The position numbers and the translations under genes are program-made. The notes beneath the pieces were generated by a model. That model searched no databases and was not told where the DNA came from. It worked only from the letters and a program-made list of their open reading frames with translations. Shown piece after piece: positions 301-51,605 of a stretch of DNA of 51,739 nt; position 1 is the first letter of the stretch; each line of letters opens with the position of its first letter. Origin of the DNA: Escherichia phage vB_EcoS_G29-2; the sequence record NC_049822.1. One strand, 5' to 3'.

Positions 301-456
301 GATTTTTGTATGTATATATATGGGGTAGCGGTAATCCTCCGTCAACCAGGTCAACAAGGTCACTTTTAGCTGTTAAACCAATAACTTAACCAGTGCATTT
401 TGTTATCTCTAAACGCGCCACATGCCAAAAATCGTTATTAAAACACAAAATATATT

Positions 457-486
457 GACATGTAGGAAAGGAAAGGCAATAATGCA
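457..486 (+). promoter_or_regulatory. sigma70-like promoter candidate (TTGACA -17/18- AATAAT)
   Basis: TTGACA at 457-462 and A/T-rich -10 near 480-486, upstream of first gene. Confidence 0.45.
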
Positions 487-519: not shown

Positions 520-1005
520 ATGAGCGAAGAAAATATTAGCACCATGTCGCGTAGTGAGTTCTGCGATATGCTTCGCACCCTGGGCGCGGCAATTGGTAGC
601 GGTGAACGTAACAATGTATTCATGCCAGCACTTTTCTTGTGCGCTAACGTGGAGAACGGCGGCGCAATTACGGCATCGTACATGCGCCAGGTGGTCAACC
701 GTGTACCAGAAGTGAAGCAAAAAGGCGTGATCAGCATTAAGCGAAAGGTGACTGATGAGGGTGATGGCTTTGTGTTTACGCTCACAGAAGCCAAAAGCAA
801 GCCACGCGTTCTGACTGGTGAAGAAATCGACGAGATCGCAGAAAAGCGCGCAGAGAAGGCGGTAAGCAAAATTCTTAATCACCTGGTAAACGTAATGCCA
901 AATATCACAGACCTGGAAGGCGATAAACTTGCTGGAGCGTGTGAGGCTATCGGGCGCTACCAGGATATGATCCGTAAACTAGCTGGAGGAAAAGAGGATG
1001 AGTAA
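520..1005 (+). CDS. hypothetical early protein
   Basis: 161-aa ORF, RBS AAAGGAG at 504-510, first gene after promoter-like TTGACA/AATAAT at 457-486. Confidence 0.6.
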   Translation: MSEENISTMSRSEFCDMLRTLGAAIGSGERNNVFMPALFLCANVENGGAITASYMRQVVNRVPEVKQKGVISIKRKVTDEGDGFVFTLTEAKSKPRVLTGEEIDEIAEKRAEKAVSKILNHLVNVMPNITDLEGDKLAGACEAIGRYQDMIRKLAGGKEDE

Positions 1006-1258
1006 GGCATTAATTGGAGTTTTGATTGCAATCGCTACCCTGACCGGATGCGAAAAGGCATCGGAATCAACCGTTGTCGTAGGCGTGGAGTCAGATTTCA
1101 AAGTCGGTCGCCTGTTCACTGTTGACGGATGCACAGCATACAGATTCTATGATAACGGTCGCGCGATCTATTACACCAATTGCAAAGGCGCAACGGATAG
1201 CACGTACAACAGCGGAAAGAACGTAATGCGCCAGCAAGTCACAACAGATATTAAATAG
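998..1258 (+). CDS. putative lipoprotein (signal peptide with lipobox LTGC)
   Basis: N-terminus MSKALIGVLIAIATLTG-C; start overlaps upstream stop; stop codon embedded in motif copy at 1254. Confidence 0.6.
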   Translation: MSKALIGVLIAIATLTGCEKASESTVVVGVESDFKVGRLFTVDGCTAYRFYDNGRAIYYTNCKGATDSTYNSGKNVMRQQVTTDIK

Positions 1259-1300
1259 CACTTTTTGTTAAAACGCCAGGTGCGAATCCTGGCATAATAG
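1254..1300 (+). promoter_or_regulatory. conserved 21-bp motif promoter (motif + spacer hairpin GCCAGG/CCTGGC + -10 ATAATA)
   Basis: AATAGCACTTTTTGTTAAAAC then 19 bp then ATAAT. Confidence 0.6.
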
Positions 1301-3909: not shown

Positions 3910-4067
3910 CCTGGTTACTTTTAATCTTTGTCACAAGTTACAACTCCGCCGCTATTGAATCGCATGAGTTCCACGGCGAATCAAGATGTCAGGAAGCACG
4001 AAAGCAAGTTGTTCTCCACATGTCAGATAGTGGAAAAGATGTAACGGCGTTATGTGTCCGTAAATAG
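3906..4067 (+). CDS. small hypothetical protein with hydrophobic N-terminus
   Basis: ATG overlaps upstream stop (ATGA); stop embedded in motif copy at 4064. Confidence 0.4.
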   Translation: MTWLLLIFVTSYNSAAIESHEFHGESRCQEARKQVVLHMSDSGKDVTALCVRK

Positions 4068-4109
4068 CACTTTTTGCAAAAACAGATTGTTGGGCTTGCG
4101 GTATAGTAA
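4064..4109 (+). promoter_or_regulatory. conserved motif promoter (hairpin GGGCTT/AAGCCC around -10 TATAGT)
   Basis: motif then 18 bp then TATAGT. Confidence 0.55.
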
Positions 4110-6479: not shown

Positions 6480-6767
6480 ATGGCTAAAAGCAATCGTAAG
6501 ATGTTGATTAACGCATTCGAAAAGGCAGCGCTTGAGCGTGGTTGGAATGACTCATTTCACACGGCAAACTGTATCCGACGTTACGGATTCAAGAATTGCC
6601 GCTCCTGGGCGCGTCAAATGGCTTCATGGTATGATTTTGATGCGCATTATCTTGATATGGATTGCGCCCTAGTCGAAATGATTGAGCAGGCAGCGCTAGA
6701 GGATAGACCGTTGACGCAATCTGATTTTGACGATTTTGTTCGCGATGAAATCTATTACATGAGCTAA
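6480..6767 (+). CDS. hypothetical protein
   Basis: RBS AAAGGAGGAAA; stop in motif copy at 6766. Confidence 0.55.
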   Translation: MAKSNRKMLINAFEKAALERGWNDSFHTANCIRRYGFKNCRSWARQMASWYDFDAHYLDMDCALVEMIEQAALEDRPLTQSDFDDFVRDEIYYMS

Positions 6768-6811
6768 TAGCACTTTTTGTTAAAACTTCCGCGAGGGCAT
6801 TTGTTAAAGTG
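6766..6811 (+). promoter_or_regulatory. conserved motif promoter (weak -10)
   Basis: motif present; -10 region TAAAGT less canonical. Confidence 0.4.
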
Positions 6812-15226: not shown

Positions 15227-15244
15227 CACAAAATTATGTTGCAC

Positions 15245-15266
15245 GTTTAACAAAAAATGCTATCAT
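15245..15266 (-). promoter_or_regulatory. motif copy in inverted orientation between head genes (function unclear)
   Basis: TTAACAAAAAATGCTAT on + strand; lacks the usual 19-bp spacing to a -10. Confidence 0.3.
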
Positions 15267-19003: not shown

Positions 19004-19024
19004 CTTTTAACAAAAAGTGCTATC
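19004..19024 (-). promoter_or_regulatory. motif copy in inverted orientation upstream of chaperone gene (function unclear)
   Basis: CTTTTAACAAAAAGTGCTATC on + strand immediately before RBS of 19037. Confidence 0.3.
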
Positions 19025-24941: not shown

Positions 24942-27900
24942 ATGGCTGAAAATATGATAACGGGCAGTAAGGGTGGATCATCAAAACCTTATGTTCCGAA
25001 AGAGATGGAAGATAACCTGATCTCAATCAACAAAATCAAAATCCTTCTTGCCGTTTCAGATGGCGAGTGCGATCCAGATTTTACACTTCGGGATCTGTAT
25101 CTTGATGATGTTCCGGTAATTGCAGACGACGGAACTGTTAACTACCAGGGTGTGAAAGCTGAATTTCGACCTGGAACGCAGACGCAAGATTACATCCAGG
25201 GGTTTACTGACACATCAAGCGAAGTGACGCTGGCGCGTGACATTACTACATCAAATCCTTATGTAATTTCTGTAACCAACAAAACATTATCGGCTATCAG
25301 AATCAAAATGCTAATGCCAACAGGCATTAAGCAAGAGGACAACGGCGATCTTGTCGGCGTTAAGGTCACTTATGCTGTTGATATGGCTGTTGACGGAGAC
25401 TCTTACAAAGAAGTATTGCGAGACACTATCGAAGGTAAAACACGTTCAGGTTACGATAGAAGCCGAAGGATTGACCTTCCGTCATTTAATGATCGCGTAT
25501 TACTTAGGGTTAGAAGGGTTACGGCAGACAGCGCATCTTCTCGTGTTACTGATCTTATTAAGCTACAAAGTTACGCTGAGGTTATTGATGCAAAATTCCG
25601 TTACCCTCTGACTGGTCTTGTATACGTTGAATTTGACAGTGAATTGTTTCCTAACCAGATCCCAAATATTTCAATCAAGAAAAAGTGGAAACTGATTAAT
25701 GTACCAAGCAACTATGATCCTGTATCCAGAGAGTATAGAGGTTCATGGGATGGAACATTCAAAAAAGCCTGGTCAAATAATCCAGCATGGGTGCTTTACG
25801 ACATCATTACAAATCAGCGTTATGGATTAGATCAGAGAGAGCTTGGTGTACAGGTTGATAAGTGGAGTCTTTACGAAGCTGCGCAATACTGCGATCAGAA
25901 AGTTCCAGACGGAAAAGGAGGCACAGAGCCACGCTATCTATGTGATGTTGTTATCCAGAGTCAGATTGAGGCTTATCAGCTTATTCGTGACATTTGCTCT
26001 ATCTTCCGTGGAATGAGCTTTTGGAATGGCGAGAGTTTGTCAATCGTTATTGATAAACCACGCGATCCATCTTACATCTTCACAAATGATAACGTTGTTG
26101 ATGGTGATTTCCAGTATACGACGGCAAGCGAAAAGAGCATGTACACTCAGTGCAACGTGACGTTCGACGACGAACAAAACATGTATCAACAGGACGTAGA
26201 GGGAGTATTCGACACAGAGGCAGCATTGCGCTTTGGATACAATCCTACAAGCATAACCGCGATCGGATGTACACGCAGGAGTGAGGCTAATCGGCGCGGT
26301 CGATGGATACTAAAAACCAACTTGCGCAGCACTACGGTAAACTTTGCTACTGGACTGGAAGGCATGATCCCATCAATAGGTGATGTGATTGCTATTGCTG
26401 ACAATTTTCACAGCAGCAACCTTAAATTAAACCTATCAGGGCGCGTGATGGAAGTTTCCGGCTTGCAGGTGTTCGTTCCGTTTAAGATTGACGCGCGACC
26501 AGGTGATTTCATTATCATCAACAAGCCGGACGGAAAGCCAGTTAAGCGCACAATCTCAAAGGTAAGCGGTGACGGAAAAACAATTGAGCTAAACATCGGG
26601 TTTGGGTTTGAAGTTAAGCCGGATACAGTTTTTGCAATCGACCGCACTGATATTGCATTGCAGCAATACGTTGTAACGAGTATCGGCAAAGGTGATGATG
26701 ATGATGAATTTACATACTCCATCACGGCTGTTGAATATGACCCGAACAAATACGACGAGATTGATTATGGAGTAAACATTGACGACAGGCCAACTTCAAT
26801 TGTCCAGCCTGACACAATGGCAGCGCCTGAAAATGTGCAAATATCCTCCTACTCGCGAATTGTCCAGGGTGCAAGCGTTGAAACAATGGTTGTGTCGTGG
26901 GATAAAGTACCTTACGCATCGCTGTATGAAATGCAGTGGCGAAAAGGTGATGGCAACTGGCTGAATACACCACAGACTGCAAACAAAGAAATTGAGGTTG
27001 AAGGTATTTATTCAGGAAACTACCAGGTAAGGGTTAGATCTGTTTCTGCTTCAGGTTCGACGTCGCCGTGGTCCAGAATTGTAACAGCTTCACTGACTGG
27101 TAAGGTAGGGGAGCCAGGCGCGCCAGTTAACTTAACTGCATCCGACAATGAGGTGTTTGGCATTCGTGTTAAGTGGGGGATGCCAGAAGGCAGCGGAGAC
27201 ACGGCATACATTGAGCTTCATCAGTCGCCGGATGGAACGGCTGAAAACTCAAGCCTGTTAACTCTGATCCCATATCCACAATATGAATACTGGCACGGTA
27301 CGCTTCCGGCTGGTCATGTTGTATGGTATAGAATCCGCAGTGTTGACAGAATCGGCAACGTTTCCGGATGGACTGATTTTGTTAGAGGCATGGCTTCAGA
27401 TGATGTGGAGGCTGTTTTAGGCAATATTCTTGATAAGATTTTTGATACCGAAGCAGGGAAGGATCTGAAAGAGAATGCCATTGATAGCGCAAACAAAATC
27501 AAGGATCAGGCGCAAAGCATCATTCAAAACGCATTGGCGAATGATGCAGACGTTAGGATTATGAGGAAGGAAAACGGAAAACGCAAAGCCGAATTCAGGC
27601 AATCAATACAGTTGATCGCAGATGAAACTGAGGCGCGCGTTACCGCAATGACGCAACTCAAGGCTGAATTTGACGAGGAAATAACTAGCGAAGTAACGAG
27701 GCTTGATCAGGCAATTGCAACAGAATCGGAAACGCGAGCAACAGCCATTGAGGAATTGAAATCACAGATTGGAGATGATATTCAGGGGCAGTTAACGAGA
27801 GTTGAGGAGGCGATTGCAAGCGAAACAGAGGCGCGCGTTTCTGCTGACACAGCATTAACAGCGAAGTTTGGAGATGTTGAATCAGCGCTGACGGAAAAAC

Positions 27901-28367
27901 TTGATTCATGGGCTGGCGTTAATGGAGTTGGCGCACAGTACGCAATGAAACTTGGATTGACATACAACGGTCAGAAGTACAGTGCTGGTATGGTGATGCA
28001 GCTTTCGCAGGGTTCATCCGGCCTTATTTCGCAGATTTTGTTTGATGCGAACAGGTTCGCTATCATGACAAGTTCGACCGGAGGGTCGTATACATTGCCT
28101 TTTGTGGTTGAAAATAACCAAGTTTTCATTAACAGCCTGTTAGTGAAAAACGGATCAATCACAAACGCCATGATCGGTAACTTCATCCAATCAAACAATT
28201 ACGTTTGGAATCAAACAGGATGGAGGCTGGATAAAAACGGAACGTTTGAAAATTATGGTTCTACTCCTGGAGAGGGGGCCATGAAAATGACAAACGAAAC
28301 GATCAGCGTTAGGGATGCAAACGGCGTTTTGCGTGTTCAGATTGGTAGGCTTACTGGTACGTGGTAA
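24942..28367 (+). CDS. tail tip / host-specificity protein (lambda gpJ-like)
   Basis: 1141 aa following K/I genes; coiled-coil repeats; terminator after. Confidence 0.85.
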   Translation: MAENMITGSKGGSSKPYVPKEMEDNLISINKIKILLAVSDGECDPDFTLRDLYLDDVPVIADDGTVNYQGVKAEFRPGTQTQDYIQGFTDTSSEVTLARDITTSNPYVISVTNKTLSAIRIKMLMPTGIKQEDNGDLVGVKVTYAVDMAVDGDSYKEVLRDTIEGKTRSGYDRSRRIDLPSFNDRVLLRVRRVTADSASSRVTDLIKLQSYAEVIDAKFRYPLTGLVYVEFDSELFPNQIPNISIKKKWKLINVPSNYDPVSREYRGSWDGTFKKAWSNNPAWVLYDIITNQRYGLDQRELGVQVDKWSLYEAAQYCDQKVPDGKGGTEPRYLCDVVIQSQIEAYQLIRDICSIFRGMSFWNGESLSIVIDKPRDPSYIFTNDNVVDGDFQYTTASEKSMYTQCNVTFDDEQNMYQQDVEGVFDTEAALRFGYNPTSITAIGCTRRSEANRRGRWILKTNLRSTTVNFATGLEGMIPSIGDVIAIADNFHSSNLKLNLSGRVMEVSGLQVFVPFKIDARPGDFIIINKPDGKPVKRTISKVSGDGKTIELNIGFGFEVKPDTVFAIDRTDIALQQYVVTSIGKGDDDDEFTYSITAVEYDPNKYDEIDYGVNIDDRPTSIVQPDTMAAPENVQISSYSRIVQGASVETMVVSWDKVPYASLYEMQWRKGDGNWLNTPQTANKEIEVEGIYSGNYQVRVRSVSASGSTSPWSRIVTASLTGKVGEPGAPVNLTASDNEVFGIRVKWGMPEGSGDTAYIELHQSPDGTAENSSLLTLIPYPQYEYWHGTLPAGHVVWYRIRSVDRIGNVSGWTDFVRGMASDDVEAVLGNILDKIFDTEAGKDLKENAIDSANKIKDQAQSIIQNALANDADVRIMRKENGKRKAEFRQSIQLIADETEARVTAMTQLKAEFDEEITSEVTRLDQAIATESETRATAIEELKSQIGDDIQGQLTRVEEAIASETEARVSADTALTAKFGDVESALTEKLDSWAGVNGVGAQYAMKLGLTYNGQKYSAGMVMQLSQGSSGLISQILFDANRFAIMTSSTGGSYTLPFVVENNQVFINSLLVKNGSITNAMIGNFIQSNNYVWNQTGWRLDKNGTFENYGSTPGEGAMKMTNETISVRDANGVLRVQIGRLTGTW

Positions 28368-28410: not shown

Positions 28411-28716
28411 ATGGCTGAATATGGTGTTTCAACGTGGGATGCTAACGGGAAGTATAACAACTACGGAATCAAGCCAGTTTCCGTTGTTGGTGTCATTAGC
28501 CTTGCGGCTGGTCAGACAAGCGGATCGTGGAGCTTTAGCATTCCAAGTGGTTTTAAGGTTGGGTATGTTGTTTCGCTTGATGAGGGTGCTAGAGGGGTTG
28601 GAAGGGAAATAGTAGCATCTGGAAACACAATAAGAATCAGTCCTACATCTTCAGTTGGTGCAAATAGATATTCTTCTTCAAAGTGTGAGTTAGTTGTTTT
28701 TCTTGAGAGGGCTTAA
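28411..28716 (+). CDS. hypothetical tail-associated protein (MAEYG paralog 1)
   Basis: RBS GGAGG; N-terminus MAEYGVSTWDANGK shared with next gene. Confidence 0.55.
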   Translation: MAEYGVSTWDANGKYNNYGIKPVSVVGVISLAAGQTSGSWSFSIPSGFKVGYVVSLDEGARGVGREIVASGNTIRISPTSSVGANRYSSSKCELVVFLERA

Positions 28717-28717
28717 A

Positions 28718-38523: not shown

Positions 38524-38569
38524 AATAGCATTTTTTGTTAAACGATGATTTAATGATTGTGTATTATAC
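38524..38569 (+). promoter_or_regulatory. conserved motif promoter for helicase operon (no spacer hairpin, -10 TATTAT)
   Basis: CAATAGCATTTTTTGTTAAAC then 19 bp then TATTAT. Confidence 0.5.
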
Positions 38570-40640: not shown

Positions 40641-41046
40641 TAAAGGCGATTATCTGGAGTTTTACGAAAGAGATCCGACGGATACGCTAAAAGAGGAATC
40701 ACACCAGATCGGGGCGTTTCAATGGTTGACTTATGCTTACCCTGAATTGCTGGCATGGCATACGAAAAACGAGGGCGACAAGGGGATCGCCACCGCAATG
40801 ATGGATCAGCAAGCCGGACTCGTTAAGGGCGTAAGTGATTTTATCATCCTGATTGGATTAAAAGGCCGTTATCCGTTTGCAGCAATTGAGATGAAGCGCG
40901 TCAATAAGTCTGGAAAGGGTAAGGCTTCACCAGTCAGTAAGGAGCAAAAAGCCTTCTTACGACGTGTGCGCGAGCTTGGCGGATTCGCTGCCGTAACATA
41001 CGGATATAAGCAATTCATGATCGCTGTAGAATACATGATGAAATAG
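40627..41046 (+). CDS. VRR-NUC domain nuclease
   Basis: PD-(D/E)xK-like SDFIILIG...AIEMKR; start overlaps helicase stop. Confidence 0.6.
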   Translation: MAMTDKGDYLEFYERDPTDTLKEESHQIGAFQWLTYAYPELLAWHTKNEGDKGIATAMMDQQAGLVKGVSDFIILIGLKGRYPFAAIEMKRVNKSGKGKASPVSKEQKAFLRRVRELGGFAAVTYGYKQFMIAVEYMMK

Positions 41047-41088
41047 CACTTTTTGTTAAAACAGGCGCGAAGGATTGCGCCATAATAA
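41042..41088 (+). promoter_or_regulatory. conserved motif promoter (hairpin GGCGC/GCGCC, -10 CATAAT)
   Basis: motif then 19 bp then ATAATA. Confidence 0.55.
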
Positions 41089-41826: not shown

Positions 41827-42066
41827 ATGCAGAAAGAAAGAAGCGTTTATTTAAATGAAACTGGAGAGTGGTTGTTATTTCGCGCTATGGTTTGCGAGGC
41901 GCTTGATAAAAACGAGTTCATAAAACCGCTATTAGGTTGTGATCCGTGGGAGTTTACAAGCGCGCTTGATATGAGCTTTGAGGAAACAAGAAAACTACCG
42001 CTTGAAAAATGGCATGAGCAGATCGGTAAAGACTTGCAAGAGTTTTACGAATCCGCGACAAAATAG
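41827..42066 (+). CDS. hypothetical protein
   Basis: RBS GGAG; stop in motif copy at 42062. Confidence 0.45.
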   Translation: MQKERSVYLNETGEWLLFRAMVCEALDKNEFIKPLLGCDPWEFTSALDMSFEETRKLPLEKWHEQIGKDLQEFYESATK

Positions 42067-42107
42067 CACTTTTTGTTAAAAAGCCCGGCCCTGTGTCGGG
42101 CATAATT
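42062..42107 (+). promoter_or_regulatory. conserved motif promoter (hairpin GCCCG/CGGGC, -10 CATAAT)
   Basis: motif then 19 bp then ATAATT. Confidence 0.55.
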
Positions 42108-44616: not shown

Positions 44617-45015
44617 ATGCGAAAGTTATCAATAATCGCTATCGCTGTTATTTTGTCTGGATGTTCAAGCGTTACGCCACTGACCGGATTAATCGGTAGT
44701 AAGCCGGAAATCACAGCACAGGCAGGAGCGGAGAACGTAAAGCAGACCGTTGGCGTTACCGCAAAGCAGGACACCAGCACAAAACAGGAAACTACAATAA
44801 AGGAATCTGCGGTTGATAAGGTGGACACTTCCAGCAAGAAGGATTTCACTACGTCAACCATTCAGGCCAATACCATCAAGGCTGATAAAATCCAGGTTGT
44901 GCAGGGTGAGCAAAGGAAGTGGTACGATCCCATAATCTATTGCGCTGCAATTTTTAGCGGTCTTTTGTCAATGCTTTACTTTTCCTACCGCAAAGGCAAC
45001 AAAAAGGAGGCTTAA
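44617..45015 (+). CDS. unimolecular spanin (lipoprotein with C-terminal TM)
   Basis: lipobox LSG-C plus C-terminal TM IIYCAAIFSGLLSMLYF; arrangement as in T1 gp11. Confidence 0.7.
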   Translation: MRKLSIIAIAVILSGCSSVTPLTGLIGSKPEITAQAGAENVKQTVGVTAKQDTSTKQETTIKESAVDKVDTSSKKDFTTSTIQANTIKADKIQVVQGEQRKWYDPIIYCAAIFSGLLSMLYFSYRKGNKKEA

Positions 45016-45282: not shown

Positions 45283-45328
45283 AAATATACCCGATACGAG
45301 ATCGGGAGTTTTAACAAAAAGTGCTATT
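45283..45328 (-). promoter_or_regulatory. conserved motif promoter (hairpin CCCGAT/ATCGGG, -10 ATATTT)
   Basis: minus-strand motif then 19 bp. Confidence 0.5.
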
Positions 45329-47452: not shown

Positions 47453-47497
47453 ATAATACCGCACCAATGCTACCCGCATTTAACAAAAAATGCTATT
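47453..47497 (-). promoter_or_regulatory. conserved motif promoter (variant, -10 TATTAT in hairpin loop)
   Basis: AATAGCATTTTTTGTTAAAT then 19 bp then TATTAT. Confidence 0.5.
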
Positions 47498-48128: not shown

Positions 48129-48173
48129 ATTATGCCAGGCTTTTACACCTGGCTTTTAACAAAAAGTGCTATT
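48129..48173 (-). promoter_or_regulatory. conserved motif promoter (hairpin GCCAGG/CCTGGC, -10 CATAAT)
   Basis: minus-strand motif; same hairpin sequence as copy at 1254. Confidence 0.55.
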
Positions 48174-50177: not shown

Positions 50178-50223
50178 TAATATACCATTCAGGCGCATAC
50201 CGTTTTTAACAAAAAGTGCTATT
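50178..50223 (-). promoter_or_regulatory. conserved motif promoter (-10 ATATTA)
   Basis: motif then 18-19 bp then ATATTA; followed by conserved leader. Confidence 0.5.
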
Positions 50224-50684: not shown

Positions 50685-50729
50685 AATGTACAGGAATACG
50701 AGGATTGAGTTTTAACAAAAAGTGCTATT
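50685..50729 (-). promoter_or_regulatory. conserved motif promoter (-10 TACATT)
   Basis: motif then 18 bp then TACATT; followed by conserved leader. Confidence 0.5.
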
Positions 50730-51560: not shown

Positions 51561-51605
51561 AATGTACCCGATCAGGGCAATTCAGTTTTAACAAAAAGTG
51601 CTATT
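51561..51605 (-). promoter_or_regulatory. conserved motif promoter (-10 TACATT)
   Basis: motif then 18 bp then TACATT; drives leftward operon from 51523. Confidence 0.5.

What the first reader, a model, noticed from the sequence alone, without database searches (positions are those of the whole stretch)
998..1258. Early-region lipoprotein: a second candidate superinfection-exclusion factor
Besides the Cor-like lipoprotein at 29389-29616 next to the tail genes, the second early gene also encodes a small lipoprotein with lipobox LTGC. Phage lipoproteins of this size (Cor of T1/phi80, Llp of T5) block the outer-membrane receptor after infection. Two unrelated lipoproteins could target one receptor in two ways or two different receptors.
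Basis: inference. Interest (0 to 1): 0.5.

Follow-up and report, generated by a model that had tools for sequence, protein, structure and literature searches.

The report
Early phage lipoprotein, DUF4884 family
The second gene of this T1-like phage really encodes a small secreted lipoprotein, but it belongs to a large uncharacterised phage family (DUF4884), is unrelated to the known receptor-blocking lipoproteins, and does not track the phage's receptor, so the proposed receptor-masking role is unsupported.

Summary
ORF 998-1258(+) encodes an 86-aa protein with a signal peptide and lipobox LTGC (Cys18). It follows a strong sigma70-like promoter and overlaps the stop of the first gene. It is under purifying selection (dN/dS 0.02-0.29).

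It is a peripheral member of DUF4884 (PF16225), a family of about 85-aa lipoproteins with 1,421 clusters at 50% identity. Members sit almost entirely in phages and prophages of diderm bacteria, always in early or replication/recombination modules and never beside tail or receptor-binding genes.

The receptor-blocking idea is weakened. Mature sequences differing by 1-3 residues occur in phages proven to use FhuA or BtuB, and alleles about 53-58% identical occur in LptD phages. Each of the phages examined carries its own receptor-matched lipoprotein beside the receptor-binding genes. The gene is dispensable: it is deleted in phage grams, replaced in aaroes and absent from T1.

Best reading: an outer-membrane-anchored periplasmic accessory factor acting on something other than the phage's own receptor. 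Broad superinfection exclusion or envelope conditioning is my guess. No function has been shown.

The parts
455..483 (+). Sigma70-type promoter-like site TTGACA-17-AATAAT upstream of the first operon
   Evidence: 11 of 12 consensus matches. It is the only strong candidate upstream of gene 520-1005, and it lacks the repeated 20-nt motif found at later intergenic sites.
520..1005 (+). First early gene: DUF7174 protein (161 aa), function unknown. It is the syntenic upstream partner of the lipoprotein gene in Drexlerviridae.
   Evidence: Pfam PF23796 at 155.9 bits. The same family precedes the lipoprotein gene in Rtp and tonnikala. It does not do so in Serratia phage MTx or Pseudomonas phage Jeremy, so the pairing is synteny by descent rather than a conserved functional pair.
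985..989 (+). Shine-Dalgarno GGAGG, 8 nt upstream of the ATG
   Evidence: Read directly from the sequence.
998..1258 (+). Lipoprotein gene (86-aa precursor, stop included), DUF4884-like
998..1048 (+). Signal peptide (residues 1-17), predicted to be cleaved by signal peptidase II before Cys18
   Evidence: n-region K3, hydrophobic core ALIGVLIAIATL, lipobox LTGC. AF2 models residues 3-14 as a helix.
1040..1051 (+). Lipobox L-T-G-C. Cys18 (1049-1051) is the predicted lipidated N-terminus. The +2 residue is Glu, not Asp.
   Evidence: The Cys column is 99% conserved. In the family, +2 is Asp in only 9 of about 140 members. By the E. coli Lol-avoidance rule (established knowledge), this predicts sorting to the outer membrane.
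1052..1255 (+). Mature periplasmic domain: a six-strand antiparallel beta meander with the nearly invariant core LFTVDGCTAYRFxD...YYTNCxG...GK
   Evidence: AF2 model with pLDDT 87.8 and pTM 0.68. Conservation per position.
1130..1132 (+). Cys45 codon, one half of the predicted disulfide
   Evidence: Cys45 and Cys62 are both Cys in 130 of 147 sequences, both replaced in 16 and singly retained in 1.
1181..1183 (+). Cys62 codon, the other half of the predicted disulfide
1255..1274 (+). First copy of a 20-nt repeated intergenic motif (ATAGCACTTTTTGTTAAAAC). It overlaps the stop codon and marks the end of the two-gene unit and the start of the next promoter region.
   Evidence: 17 copies in the window against 0.04 expected. 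GGCATAAT follows about 19 nt downstream.
28411..29359 (+). Receptor-binding cassette downstream of the J-like gene: homologues of T1 ST32 (28411-28716) and ST31 (28718-29359)
   Evidence: 60% and 55% identity to T1 ST32 and ST31. The literature ties this cassette type to FhuA (PMC13164509; PMC8594841).
29389..29616 (-). Cor superinfection-exclusion lipoprotein, the receptor-matched one (comparison feature)
   Evidence: NCBIfam lamb_exclu_cor at 69.4 bits. It is 56% identical to T1 Cor and 94.7% identical to the Cor of the FhuA phage JakobBernoulli.
44617..45015 (+). u-spanin, the third lipoprotein of the window (LSGC lipobox, C-terminal transmembrane segment), in the lysis cassette
   Evidence: Position equivalent to T1 ST11.

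Best explanation
The gene encodes a true lipoprotein precursor of a T1-like (Hanrivervirus) phage. Host RNA polymerase most likely transcribes it immediately after infection, as the second cistron of the first operon, from the promoter at 455-483. Its translation is probably coupled to that of the DUF7174 gene.

The precursor would be exported by Sec, lipidated on Cys18 and cleaved by signal peptidase II. Because +2 is Glu rather than Asp, the Lol system would carry it to the inner leaflet of the outer membrane. There a tether of about 5 residues holds a 68-residue, disulfide-bonded (Cys45-Cys62) six-strand beta domain against the periplasmic face of the outer membrane.

The domain belongs to the large, uncharacterised, phage-borne DUF4884-like family. 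It acts without a conserved partner gene and is an accessory function dispensable for growth on laboratory hosts. It does not plug the phage's own terminal receptor the way Cor, Llp or Rtp45 do.

My committed guess for the mechanism is that it binds a conserved envelope component, or the incoming machinery of other phages, at the inner face of the outer membrane during the latent period. That would give receptor-independent superinfection exclusion or envelope protection.

Shown here: gene reality, family membership, predicted fold, disulfide covariation, early and non-receptor genomic context, receptor independence, dispensability. Inferred: lipidation, outer-membrane sorting, timing of expression. 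Guessed: the exclusion or envelope-protection role.
For: - Gene and signal. Purifying selection.
- Family: Pfam DUF4884 E=2e-5. All 38 close hits carry PF16225. The profile search found 1,421 cluster representatives at E<=1e-3. 135 of 147 members match DUF4884. 445 further hits are all DUF4884, with no functional name.
- Fold and disulfide.
- Phage-borne and early context:
  - 63 viral contigs, but only 11 loci in 185,579 species genomes. Eight of these are in Pseudomonas genomes, several next to integrase and recombination genes.
  - The Agrobacterium prophage order is RecT-HNH-DUF4884-...-integrase with overlapping stops.
  - A 351-kb contig carries it among small early genes.
  - Neighbours across 55 lineages are replication, recombination or nin-type genes, with no shared partner.
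- Receptor independence: BASEL receptors against alleles, contrasted with the receptor-linked cassettes. Phage Rtp has both the structurally proven LptD blocker Rtp45 and the DUF4884-like rtp3.
- Dispensability: grams deletion, unrelated gene in aaroes, absence from T1, truncated copies (P0025, aalborv).
- Prior for an exclusion role: from established knowledge, the characterised envelope-directed early proteins of virulent coliphages that I know of (T5 Llp, T4 Imm and Sp) are exclusion factors.
Against: - No experiment or homologue with a known function supports any activity.
- No PADLOC hit and no informative domain fusion.
- A few family members replace the lipobox with an N-terminal transmembrane anchor (L078, L079, L082). 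The outer-membrane tether is therefore not universal, and the target may not lie on the outer membrane.
- In the Agrobacterium prophage examined the gene sits inside an early-left operon and is probably silent in lysogens. That fits a lytic-cycle function but not classical prophage-type exclusion.
- The family spans hosts from Bacteroidota to Proteobacteria. This requires a very conserved target and fits housekeeping envelope manipulation equally well.
Confidence: 0.4

Rival explanations
1. Second plug for the phage's own receptor. The lipoprotein would bind the periplasmic face of FhuA, like Llp or Cor, and block adsorption.
For: It is a small, early, probably outer-membrane-anchored phage lipoprotein with a disulfide, like Llp and Rtp45 (PMC9586334 and PMC12685063, listed). 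The window's receptor cassette is the T1/FhuA type.
Against: The mature protein is nearly identical in BtuB phages: FritzSarasin differs by 1 residue, KarlJaspers by 3. It is about 53-58% identical in LptD phages. The true receptor-linked lipoproteins diverge to about 35% identity between receptor types. There is no sequence or fold similarity to Cor, Llp or Rtp45. The gene is never adjacent to receptor-binding genes. The family occurs in phages of hosts unlikely to carry an E. coli-type FhuA, by my own reasoning.
Confidence: 0.06
2. Blocker of a different, specific outer-membrane receptor used by competing phages. The target would be a conserved outer-membrane protein, approached from the periplasmic side.
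For: A short tether next to the outer membrane is predicted. There are two allele classes with a variable C-terminal hairpin, and recombinant alleles exist (P0012 and L021). That pattern is what one expects of a specificity determinant under diversifying exchange.
Against: The core is extremely conserved across phyla (F40 and D52 invariant; L39, Y48, R49, F50 and Y58 at 96% or more). Phage receptors are usually lineage-specific. Rtp already carries an LptD blocker. No candidate target emerges from context.
Confidence: 0.15
3. A periplasmic host-takeover function unrelated to exclusion. Examples: modulating peptidoglycan or outer-membrane biogenesis or the envelope-stress response, tuning lysis by the SAR endolysin/pinholin/u-spanin system, or countering an envelope-located host defence.
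For: It lies in early operons together with replication and recombination genes in many unrelated phages. It is apparently operonic, and so probably repressed, in the Agrobacterium prophage examined. Its wide phylogenetic range fits a universal envelope target. Some members are anchored by a transmembrane segment instead of a lipid.
Against: The gene is dispensable and frequently lost or replaced within one genus, which is unlike a core takeover function. It is not linked to lysis cassettes. There is no similarity to known lysozyme inhibitors or other periplasmic regulators in the PDB.
Confidence: 0.3
4. A non-functional or decaying ORF whose lipobox is a chance feature.
For: Loose lipobox patterns arise by chance about twice per shuffled window. 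Truncated copies exist in some phages.
Against: dN/dS is 0.02-0.29. There are 1,421 family clusters with a conserved lipobox and core. The fold is predicted with confidence. There is a good Shine-Dalgarno and a promoter.
Confidence: 0.02

Closest known systems
DUF4884 (Pfam PF16225), an uncharacterised family of about 90-aa lipoproteins
   Same: The core motif matches at E=2e-5. All close homologues are pre-annotated PF16225, and 135 of 147 family representatives hit the model. GenBank already labels the orthologues in phages Henu8, phiE31-2 and several JLBYU phages as 'DUF4884 domain-containing protein'.
   Different: This protein scores 24.7 bits, below Pfam's gathering cut-off of 30. The 49-position Pfam model covers only the central strands. 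As I recall, Pfam describes the family as mainly from Bacteroides. Here the family proves to be overwhelmingly phage- or prophage-borne across Proteobacteria and Bacteroidota. No function is known.
Cor (T1, phi80, N15, HK022) and T5 Llp: FhuA-blocking superinfection-exclusion lipoproteins
   Same: Small phage lipoproteins of about 60-70 mature residues, beta-rich and disulfide-containing. By established knowledge, Llp is expressed early. The signal peptide is 81% identical over 16 residues to that of the window's own Cor.
Rtp45 of phage Rtp: the LptDE-blocking exclusion lipoprotein (PDB 9RPS; PMC12685063)
   Same: A small periplasmic lipoprotein with one disulfide from a T1-like phage. Rtp also carries the DUF4884-like gene (rtp3, about 53-56% identical to the window's protein).
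   Different: Rtp45 lies beside the receptor-binding gene rtp44 and inserts a hairpin into the LptD lumen. rtp3 is the third annotated gene at the left genome end and is a different protein family. Both occur in one genome, which argues that they do different jobs.
T4 Imm and Sp (spackle): early, receptor-independent exclusion proteins acting in the envelope
   Same: They work in the way I propose here. They are immediate-early accessory proteins placed in the envelope that act after adsorption, independently of the receptor (established knowledge, not tested here).
   Different: No sequence or fold relation was found. Imm is an inner-membrane protein and Sp is a soluble helical periplasmic protein. 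Neither is a lipoprotein.
u-spanin (T1 gp11 type)
   Same: A phage outer-membrane lipoprotein. One is present in this window at 44617-45015.
   Different: The u-spanin has a C-terminal transmembrane anchor and sits in the lysis cassette. The 86-aa protein has neither feature.

Membership tests
Bacterial lipoproteins (signal peptidase II substrates) | N-terminal signal peptide with a positive n-region, a hydrophobic core and a lipobox [LVI][ASTVI][GAS]C, with the Cys at residue 15-35 | tested here: met
   MSKALIGVLIAIATLTGC with Cys18. A lipobox was found in 178 of 187 homologues collected. The Cys column is 99% conserved.
Bacterial lipoproteins (signal peptidase II substrates) | Actual diacylglyceryl modification, globomycin-sensitive cleavage and membrane localisation | not testable with these tools
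   Needs labelling and fractionation. Outer-membrane sorting is inferred from +2 = Glu under the E. coli Lol-avoidance rule (established knowledge).
DUF4884 (PF16225) | Score at or above Pfam's gathering threshold (30 bits) | tested here: not met
   24.7 bits, E=2e-5, residues 32-60 on model positions 3-33 of 49.
DUF4884 (PF16225) | Significant homology to family members by profile search | tested here: met
   A profile of close homologues retrieves 1,421 cluster representatives. 135 of 147 of these hit PF16225 at E<=1e-3, the best at 3e-11. All 38 and all 120 listed database hits carry PF16225.
Cor exclusion lipoproteins (NCBIfam NF047972) | Match to the Cor family model | tested here: not met
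   No NF047972 hit for the 86-aa protein, whereas the window's real Cor scores 69.4 bits. hhalign aligns only the signal peptide.
Cor / Llp / Rtp45-type receptor-blocking lipoproteins of small siphophages | Encoded in the receptor-binding-protein locus downstream of the J-like gene | tested here: not met
   The gene is about 24 kb upstream of the start of the J-like gene (24942-28367) and 27-28 kb from the cor cassette, in the first early operon. It is never next to tail or receptor-binding genes in 55 lineages.
Cor / Llp / Rtp45-type receptor-blocking lipoproteins of small siphophages | The allele co-varies with the terminal receptor | tested here: not met
   Mature proteins differ by 1-3 residues between FhuA phages (JakobBernoulli, PeterMerian) and BtuB phages (FritzSarasin, KarlJaspers). 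The receptor-linked lipoproteins share only 35% identity across these types.
Cor / Llp / Rtp45-type receptor-blocking lipoproteins of small siphophages | Fold similar to Llp (8A60) or Rtp45 (9RPS) | tested here: not met
Superinfection-exclusion factors (functional class) | Expression reduces adsorption or DNA entry of the same or other phages | not testable with these tools
   Requires plating and adsorption assays.
Spanins (o-spanin or u-spanin) | Located in the lysis cassette, with a C-terminal transmembrane segment (u-spanin) or embedded in or adjacent to an i-spanin gene (o-spanin) | tested here: not met
   The lysis cassette lies at about 43.9-45.0 kb and has its own u-spanin. The 86-aa protein has no C-terminal hydrophobic segment.

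The most novel reading that the evidence does not exclude
DUF4884-like proteins would be a widespread, previously unrecognised class of phage early periplasmic effectors. They would bind one universal envelope machine of diderm bacteria (for example BAM, Lpt, Tol-Pal or peptidoglycan-associated proteins) from the inner face of the outer membrane. That would give receptor-independent exclusion of incoming phages, or shut down envelope biogenesis. This mechanism would differ from the receptor plugs Cor, Llp and Rtp45, and would be shared by phages of Proteobacteria and Bacteroidota.
Probability: 0.25. Interest if true: 0.7.

Novelty: new member of a known kind. Interest (0 to 1): 0.35.

Why it matters
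If the family has a single conserved periplasmic target, it would be a general phage tool for manipulating the Gram-negative envelope. Phage exclusion lipoproteins have already revealed druggable states of FhuA and LptDE (PMC9586334, PMC12685063), so the target could be of interest for antibacterial design.

For phage biology, the result separates two lipoproteins that annotation pipelines and readers tend to lump together. Cor-type genes in the receptor locus predict the receptor. The early DUF4884-type gene does not.

For this window alone the finding is ordinary. Near-identical genes sit in dozens of sequenced T1-like phages and are already labelled DUF4884 or hypothetical.

Tried and rejected
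1. PDB searches by sequence with the single protein and with the 147-sequence profile gave only signal-peptide matches.
3. The first AF2 run, with 27 close homologues, gave pLDDT 64.5 and was not used for fold searches.
4. NCBIfam and PADLOC gave no family for the protein. PHROGs gave only unknown-function families, phrog_6360 and phrog_902.
5. Guilt by association gave nothing. Clustering of +/-5 neighbours over 77 loci (55 lineages) and a PHROG scan of 145 neighbours found no conserved partner gene. The DUF7174 pairing is confined to Drexlerviridae.
6. Domain fusions in longer family members: none.
7. The genome scan with the full alignment failed because no stretch was conserved enough. The narrower motif scan therefore undercounts bacterial copies.
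8. Literature searches for DUF4884, Drexlerviridae or Hanrivervirus lipoproteins, and LptD exclusion found no functional study of this family.
9. I considered and rejected a spanin role, membership of Cor/Llp/Rtp45, and a chance ORF.

Full report
**What the window is.** The window is a complete or near-complete genome of a T1-like siphophage (Drexlerviridae, Tempevirinae, Hanrivervirus). Region 400-2800 is about 93% identical in nucleotides to phages herni and JakobBernoulli. The gene order is collinear with T1.

**Observation.** ORF 998-1258(+) encodes 86 aa beginning MSKALIGVLIAIATLTGC|EKASES.
- It has a lysine in the n-region, a 12-residue hydrophobic core, and the lipobox LTGC with Cys18.
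- A GGAGG lies 8 nt upstream of the ATG.
- The ATG overlaps the stop of the preceding gene 520-1005, a DUF7174 protein.
- A near-consensus sigma70 promoter (TTGACA-17-AATAAT) lies at 455-483.

A lipobox pattern alone is not rare: a loose rule hits about two ORFs per shuffled window. Here, however, it is conserved in 178 of 187 homologues. The gene is also under purifying selection, with dN/dS of 0.02-0.29.

The window also carries a third lipoprotein, the u-spanin at 44617-45015.

**Family.**
- Pfam gives a sub-threshold but significant DUF4884 match: 24.7 bits against a cut-off of 30, E=2e-5.
- PHROGs gives only unknown-function families.
- All 38 close database hits are pre-annotated PF16225.
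- A profile of 27 homologues, searched exhaustively, finds 1,421 cluster representatives at E<=1e-3 and 382 at E<=1e-10. Nearly all are lipoproteins of 80-120 aa.
- 135 of 147 of them hit DUF4884.
- A further profile search lists 445 proteins, none with a functional name.

The family is overwhelmingly viral.
- 63 loci lie in IMG/VR contigs of 5-358 kb.
- tblastn hits lie in Drexlerviridae, Pantoea, Serratia (Myosmarvirus), Pseudomonas and Xanthomonas phages.
- Only 11 motif-matching loci occur in 185,579 species genomes. Eight of these are in Pseudomonas genomes, several beside integrase and recombination genes.

**Structure.** With the deep alignment, AF2 gives pLDDT 87.8 and pTM 0.68. The model is a signal helix followed by six antiparallel strands in a meander.
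- The nearly invariant positions are L39, F40, Y48, R49, F50, D52, Y58, G64 and K74.
- Cys45 and Cys62 are both present in 130 of 147 sequences, both replaced in 16, and singly present in 1. This is the signature of a disulfide, and so of a periplasmic protein.
- +2 is Glu. Asp is rare at +2 in the family. By the E. coli Lol rule (established knowledge), this predicts outer-membrane sorting.
- BFVD returns only family members.
- Profile-to-PDB sequence search and hhalign against Cor align only signal peptides.

**Context.** In Drexlerviridae the gene is the second of the first operon, after DUF7174. In phage Rtp a tiny annotated ORF, rtp2, lies between the two genes. That pairing is absent in Serratia MTx and Pseudomonas Jeremy.

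Across 55 distinct genomic contexts no neighbour family recurs. The annotated neighbours are helicase loaders, DnaB, recombination exonuclease, NinG, polynucleotide kinase and replication proteins. None is a tail, receptor-binding or lysis gene.

In an Agrobacterium prophage the order is cI/Cro ... RecT-HNH-DUF4884-...-integrase, with overlapping stop and start codons. This is an early-left operon that is probably silent in the lysogen. In a 351-kb contig the gene lies among small early genes.

**Test of the receptor hypothesis.** The BASEL supplementary table gives experimentally determined receptors:

| Phage | Receptor |
|---|---|
| JakobBernoulli | FhuA |
| PeterMerian | FhuA |
| KarlJaspers | BtuB |
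| FritzSarasin | BtuB |
| JeanPiccard | LptD |

- The window's receptor cassette is the T1 type: ST32, ST31 and Cor homologues at 60, 55 and 56% identity. Its Cor is 94.7% identical to JakobBernoulli's. FhuA is therefore the predicted receptor.
- The BtuB phages carry a different cassette. Its lipoprotein is only about 35% identical to Cor.
- The early lipoprotein behaves differently. Its mature form differs from the window's by one residue in FritzSarasin (BtuB), by two in PeterMerian (FhuA), and by three in JakobBernoulli (FhuA) and KarlJaspers (BtuB). There are no receptor-specific positions.
- JeanPiccard (LptD-dependent) and Rtp (whose Rtp45 binds LptDE) carry alleles about 53-58% identical.
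- In Rtp the LptDE blocker is Rtp45, as shown by cryo-EM, and it is encoded next to the receptor-binding gene.

So the gene is independent of the terminal receptor. This is the opposite of the behaviour of Cor, Llp and Rtp45.

**Dispensability and allelic flux.**
- Phage grams has a clean deletion that removes the lipoprotein gene and the two following genes.
- aaroes carries an unrelated Cys-rich cytoplasmic protein in the same slot.
- T1 has no family member.
- A 59-aa in-frame deletion variant and a copy lacking the signal peptide exist.
- Two allele classes exist, with recombinants between them. They differ between FritzSarasin and tonnikala, phages the BASEL table lists as about 95% identical overall.

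**Interpretation.** The specific analogy to Cor and Llp is not supported for the phage's own receptor. The best-supported picture is an immediate-early, outer-membrane-tethered, disulfide-bonded periplasmic accessory protein of the phage-borne DUF4884-like family that acts alone on something other than the terminal receptor.

From established knowledge, the characterised envelope-directed early proteins of virulent coliphages that I know of (T5 Llp, T4 Imm and Sp) are exclusion factors. On that basis I commit to receptor-independent exclusion or envelope protection as the most likely role, at about 0.4. Rivals are a non-exclusion periplasmic takeover function (about 0.3) and a block of some other conserved outer-membrane receptor (about 0.15). 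No function is shown by any computation here, and no paper in the searchable library addresses this family.

**Novelty and score.** The gene is a new member of a known but uncharacterised family. Orthologues in GenBank are already labelled DUF4884 or hypothetical. Interest is moderate to low for this window (0.35). It would rise if the family proves to have one universal envelope target.

Noticed in passing
window 1255-1274, 1719-1738, 2766-2785, 4064-4083, 6767-6786, 38525-38544, 41043-41062, 42063-42082 (+); 15244-15263, 19004-19023, 29671-29690, 45308-45327, 47477-47496, 48153-48172, 50203-50222, 50709-50728, 51585-51604 (-): The 20-nt motif ATAGCACTTTTTGTTAAAAC occurs 17 times (<=3 mismatches; 0.04 expected). 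Most copies share the strand of the neighbouring gene blocks, although the minus-strand copies at 15244 and 19004 lie inside the plus-strand structural gene block. At the two copies read, GGCATAAT follows about 19 nt downstream. It is probably a phage-specific promoter or operator element. The first operon (promoter at 455-483) lacks it.
   Followed up: partly
window 520-1005: The first early gene is a DUF7174 protein (155.9 bits). It precedes slot 2 in Rtp and tonnikala (both matched to the Pfam model) and, judging by shared viral orthologous group VOG2785, also in aaroes and grams, whatever occupies slot 2. Its function is unknown.
   Followed up: partly
L018:2242-2505 (phage aaroes), L083:1127-1453 (T1 ST76), L019:2050-2260 (phage grams): The second position of the early operon is a variable slot. 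It holds the DUF4884 lipoprotein in many phages, an unrelated Cys-rich 87-aa protein in aaroes, an unrelated 108-aa protein in T1, and a deletion joining the DUF7174 gene to the tail of the fourth gene in grams.
   Followed up: yes
L084:5046-5315(-) and L085:5277-5546(-) (KarlJaspers and FritzSarasin): The BtuB-specific receptor cassettes end with an 89-aa lipoprotein (MKKLIAV...LTGC) that is only about 35% identical to Cor. It is the likely BtuB-matched exclusion factor. Its signal peptide is nearly the same as that of the window's Cor.
   Followed up: partly
L078, L079, L082 (IMG/VR contigs): Some family members have no lipobox. Instead they carry an N-terminal transmembrane anchor before a shortened domain (…SADGC[TS]VYRF…), so the membrane tether is not conserved across the family.
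   Followed up: no
L003-L010, L028-L041, L050, L058 (Pseudomonas prophages and viral contigs): Pseudomonas members carry a conserved C-terminal extension of about 35 residues (…GGNHQAGNERQLSPHETQPEPTPALAPGRWIDERYQL) that is absent from the enterobacterial phage proteins.
   Followed up: no
phage database records MG0656xx ('Campylobacter phage A16a, E6, C4, A139 ...'): About 20 records labelled as Campylobacter jejuni phages are about 50-kb T1-like genomes. They carry this lipoprotein and Cor at 85-95% identity to coliphages. The host labels look doubtful, possibly through contaminating coliphages.
   Followed up: no
window 28411-29616: The receptor cassette has the T1 ST32/ST31/Cor architecture, and its Cor is 94.7% identical to that of the FhuA phage JakobBernoulli. 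This phage is therefore predicted to use FhuA. One paper's remark links Tempevirinae Cor to BtuB (PMC13164509), but the BASEL table lists JakobBernoulli and PeterMerian as FhuA-dependent.
   Followed up: partly
P0012 and L021:6001-6267 against L015:2501-2773: Hybrid alleles join the N-terminal two-thirds of the window-type lipoprotein to the C-terminal hairpin (…TSWEVSKSNGKVT…) of the tonnikala-type allele. This indicates recombination inside the gene.
   Followed up: partly
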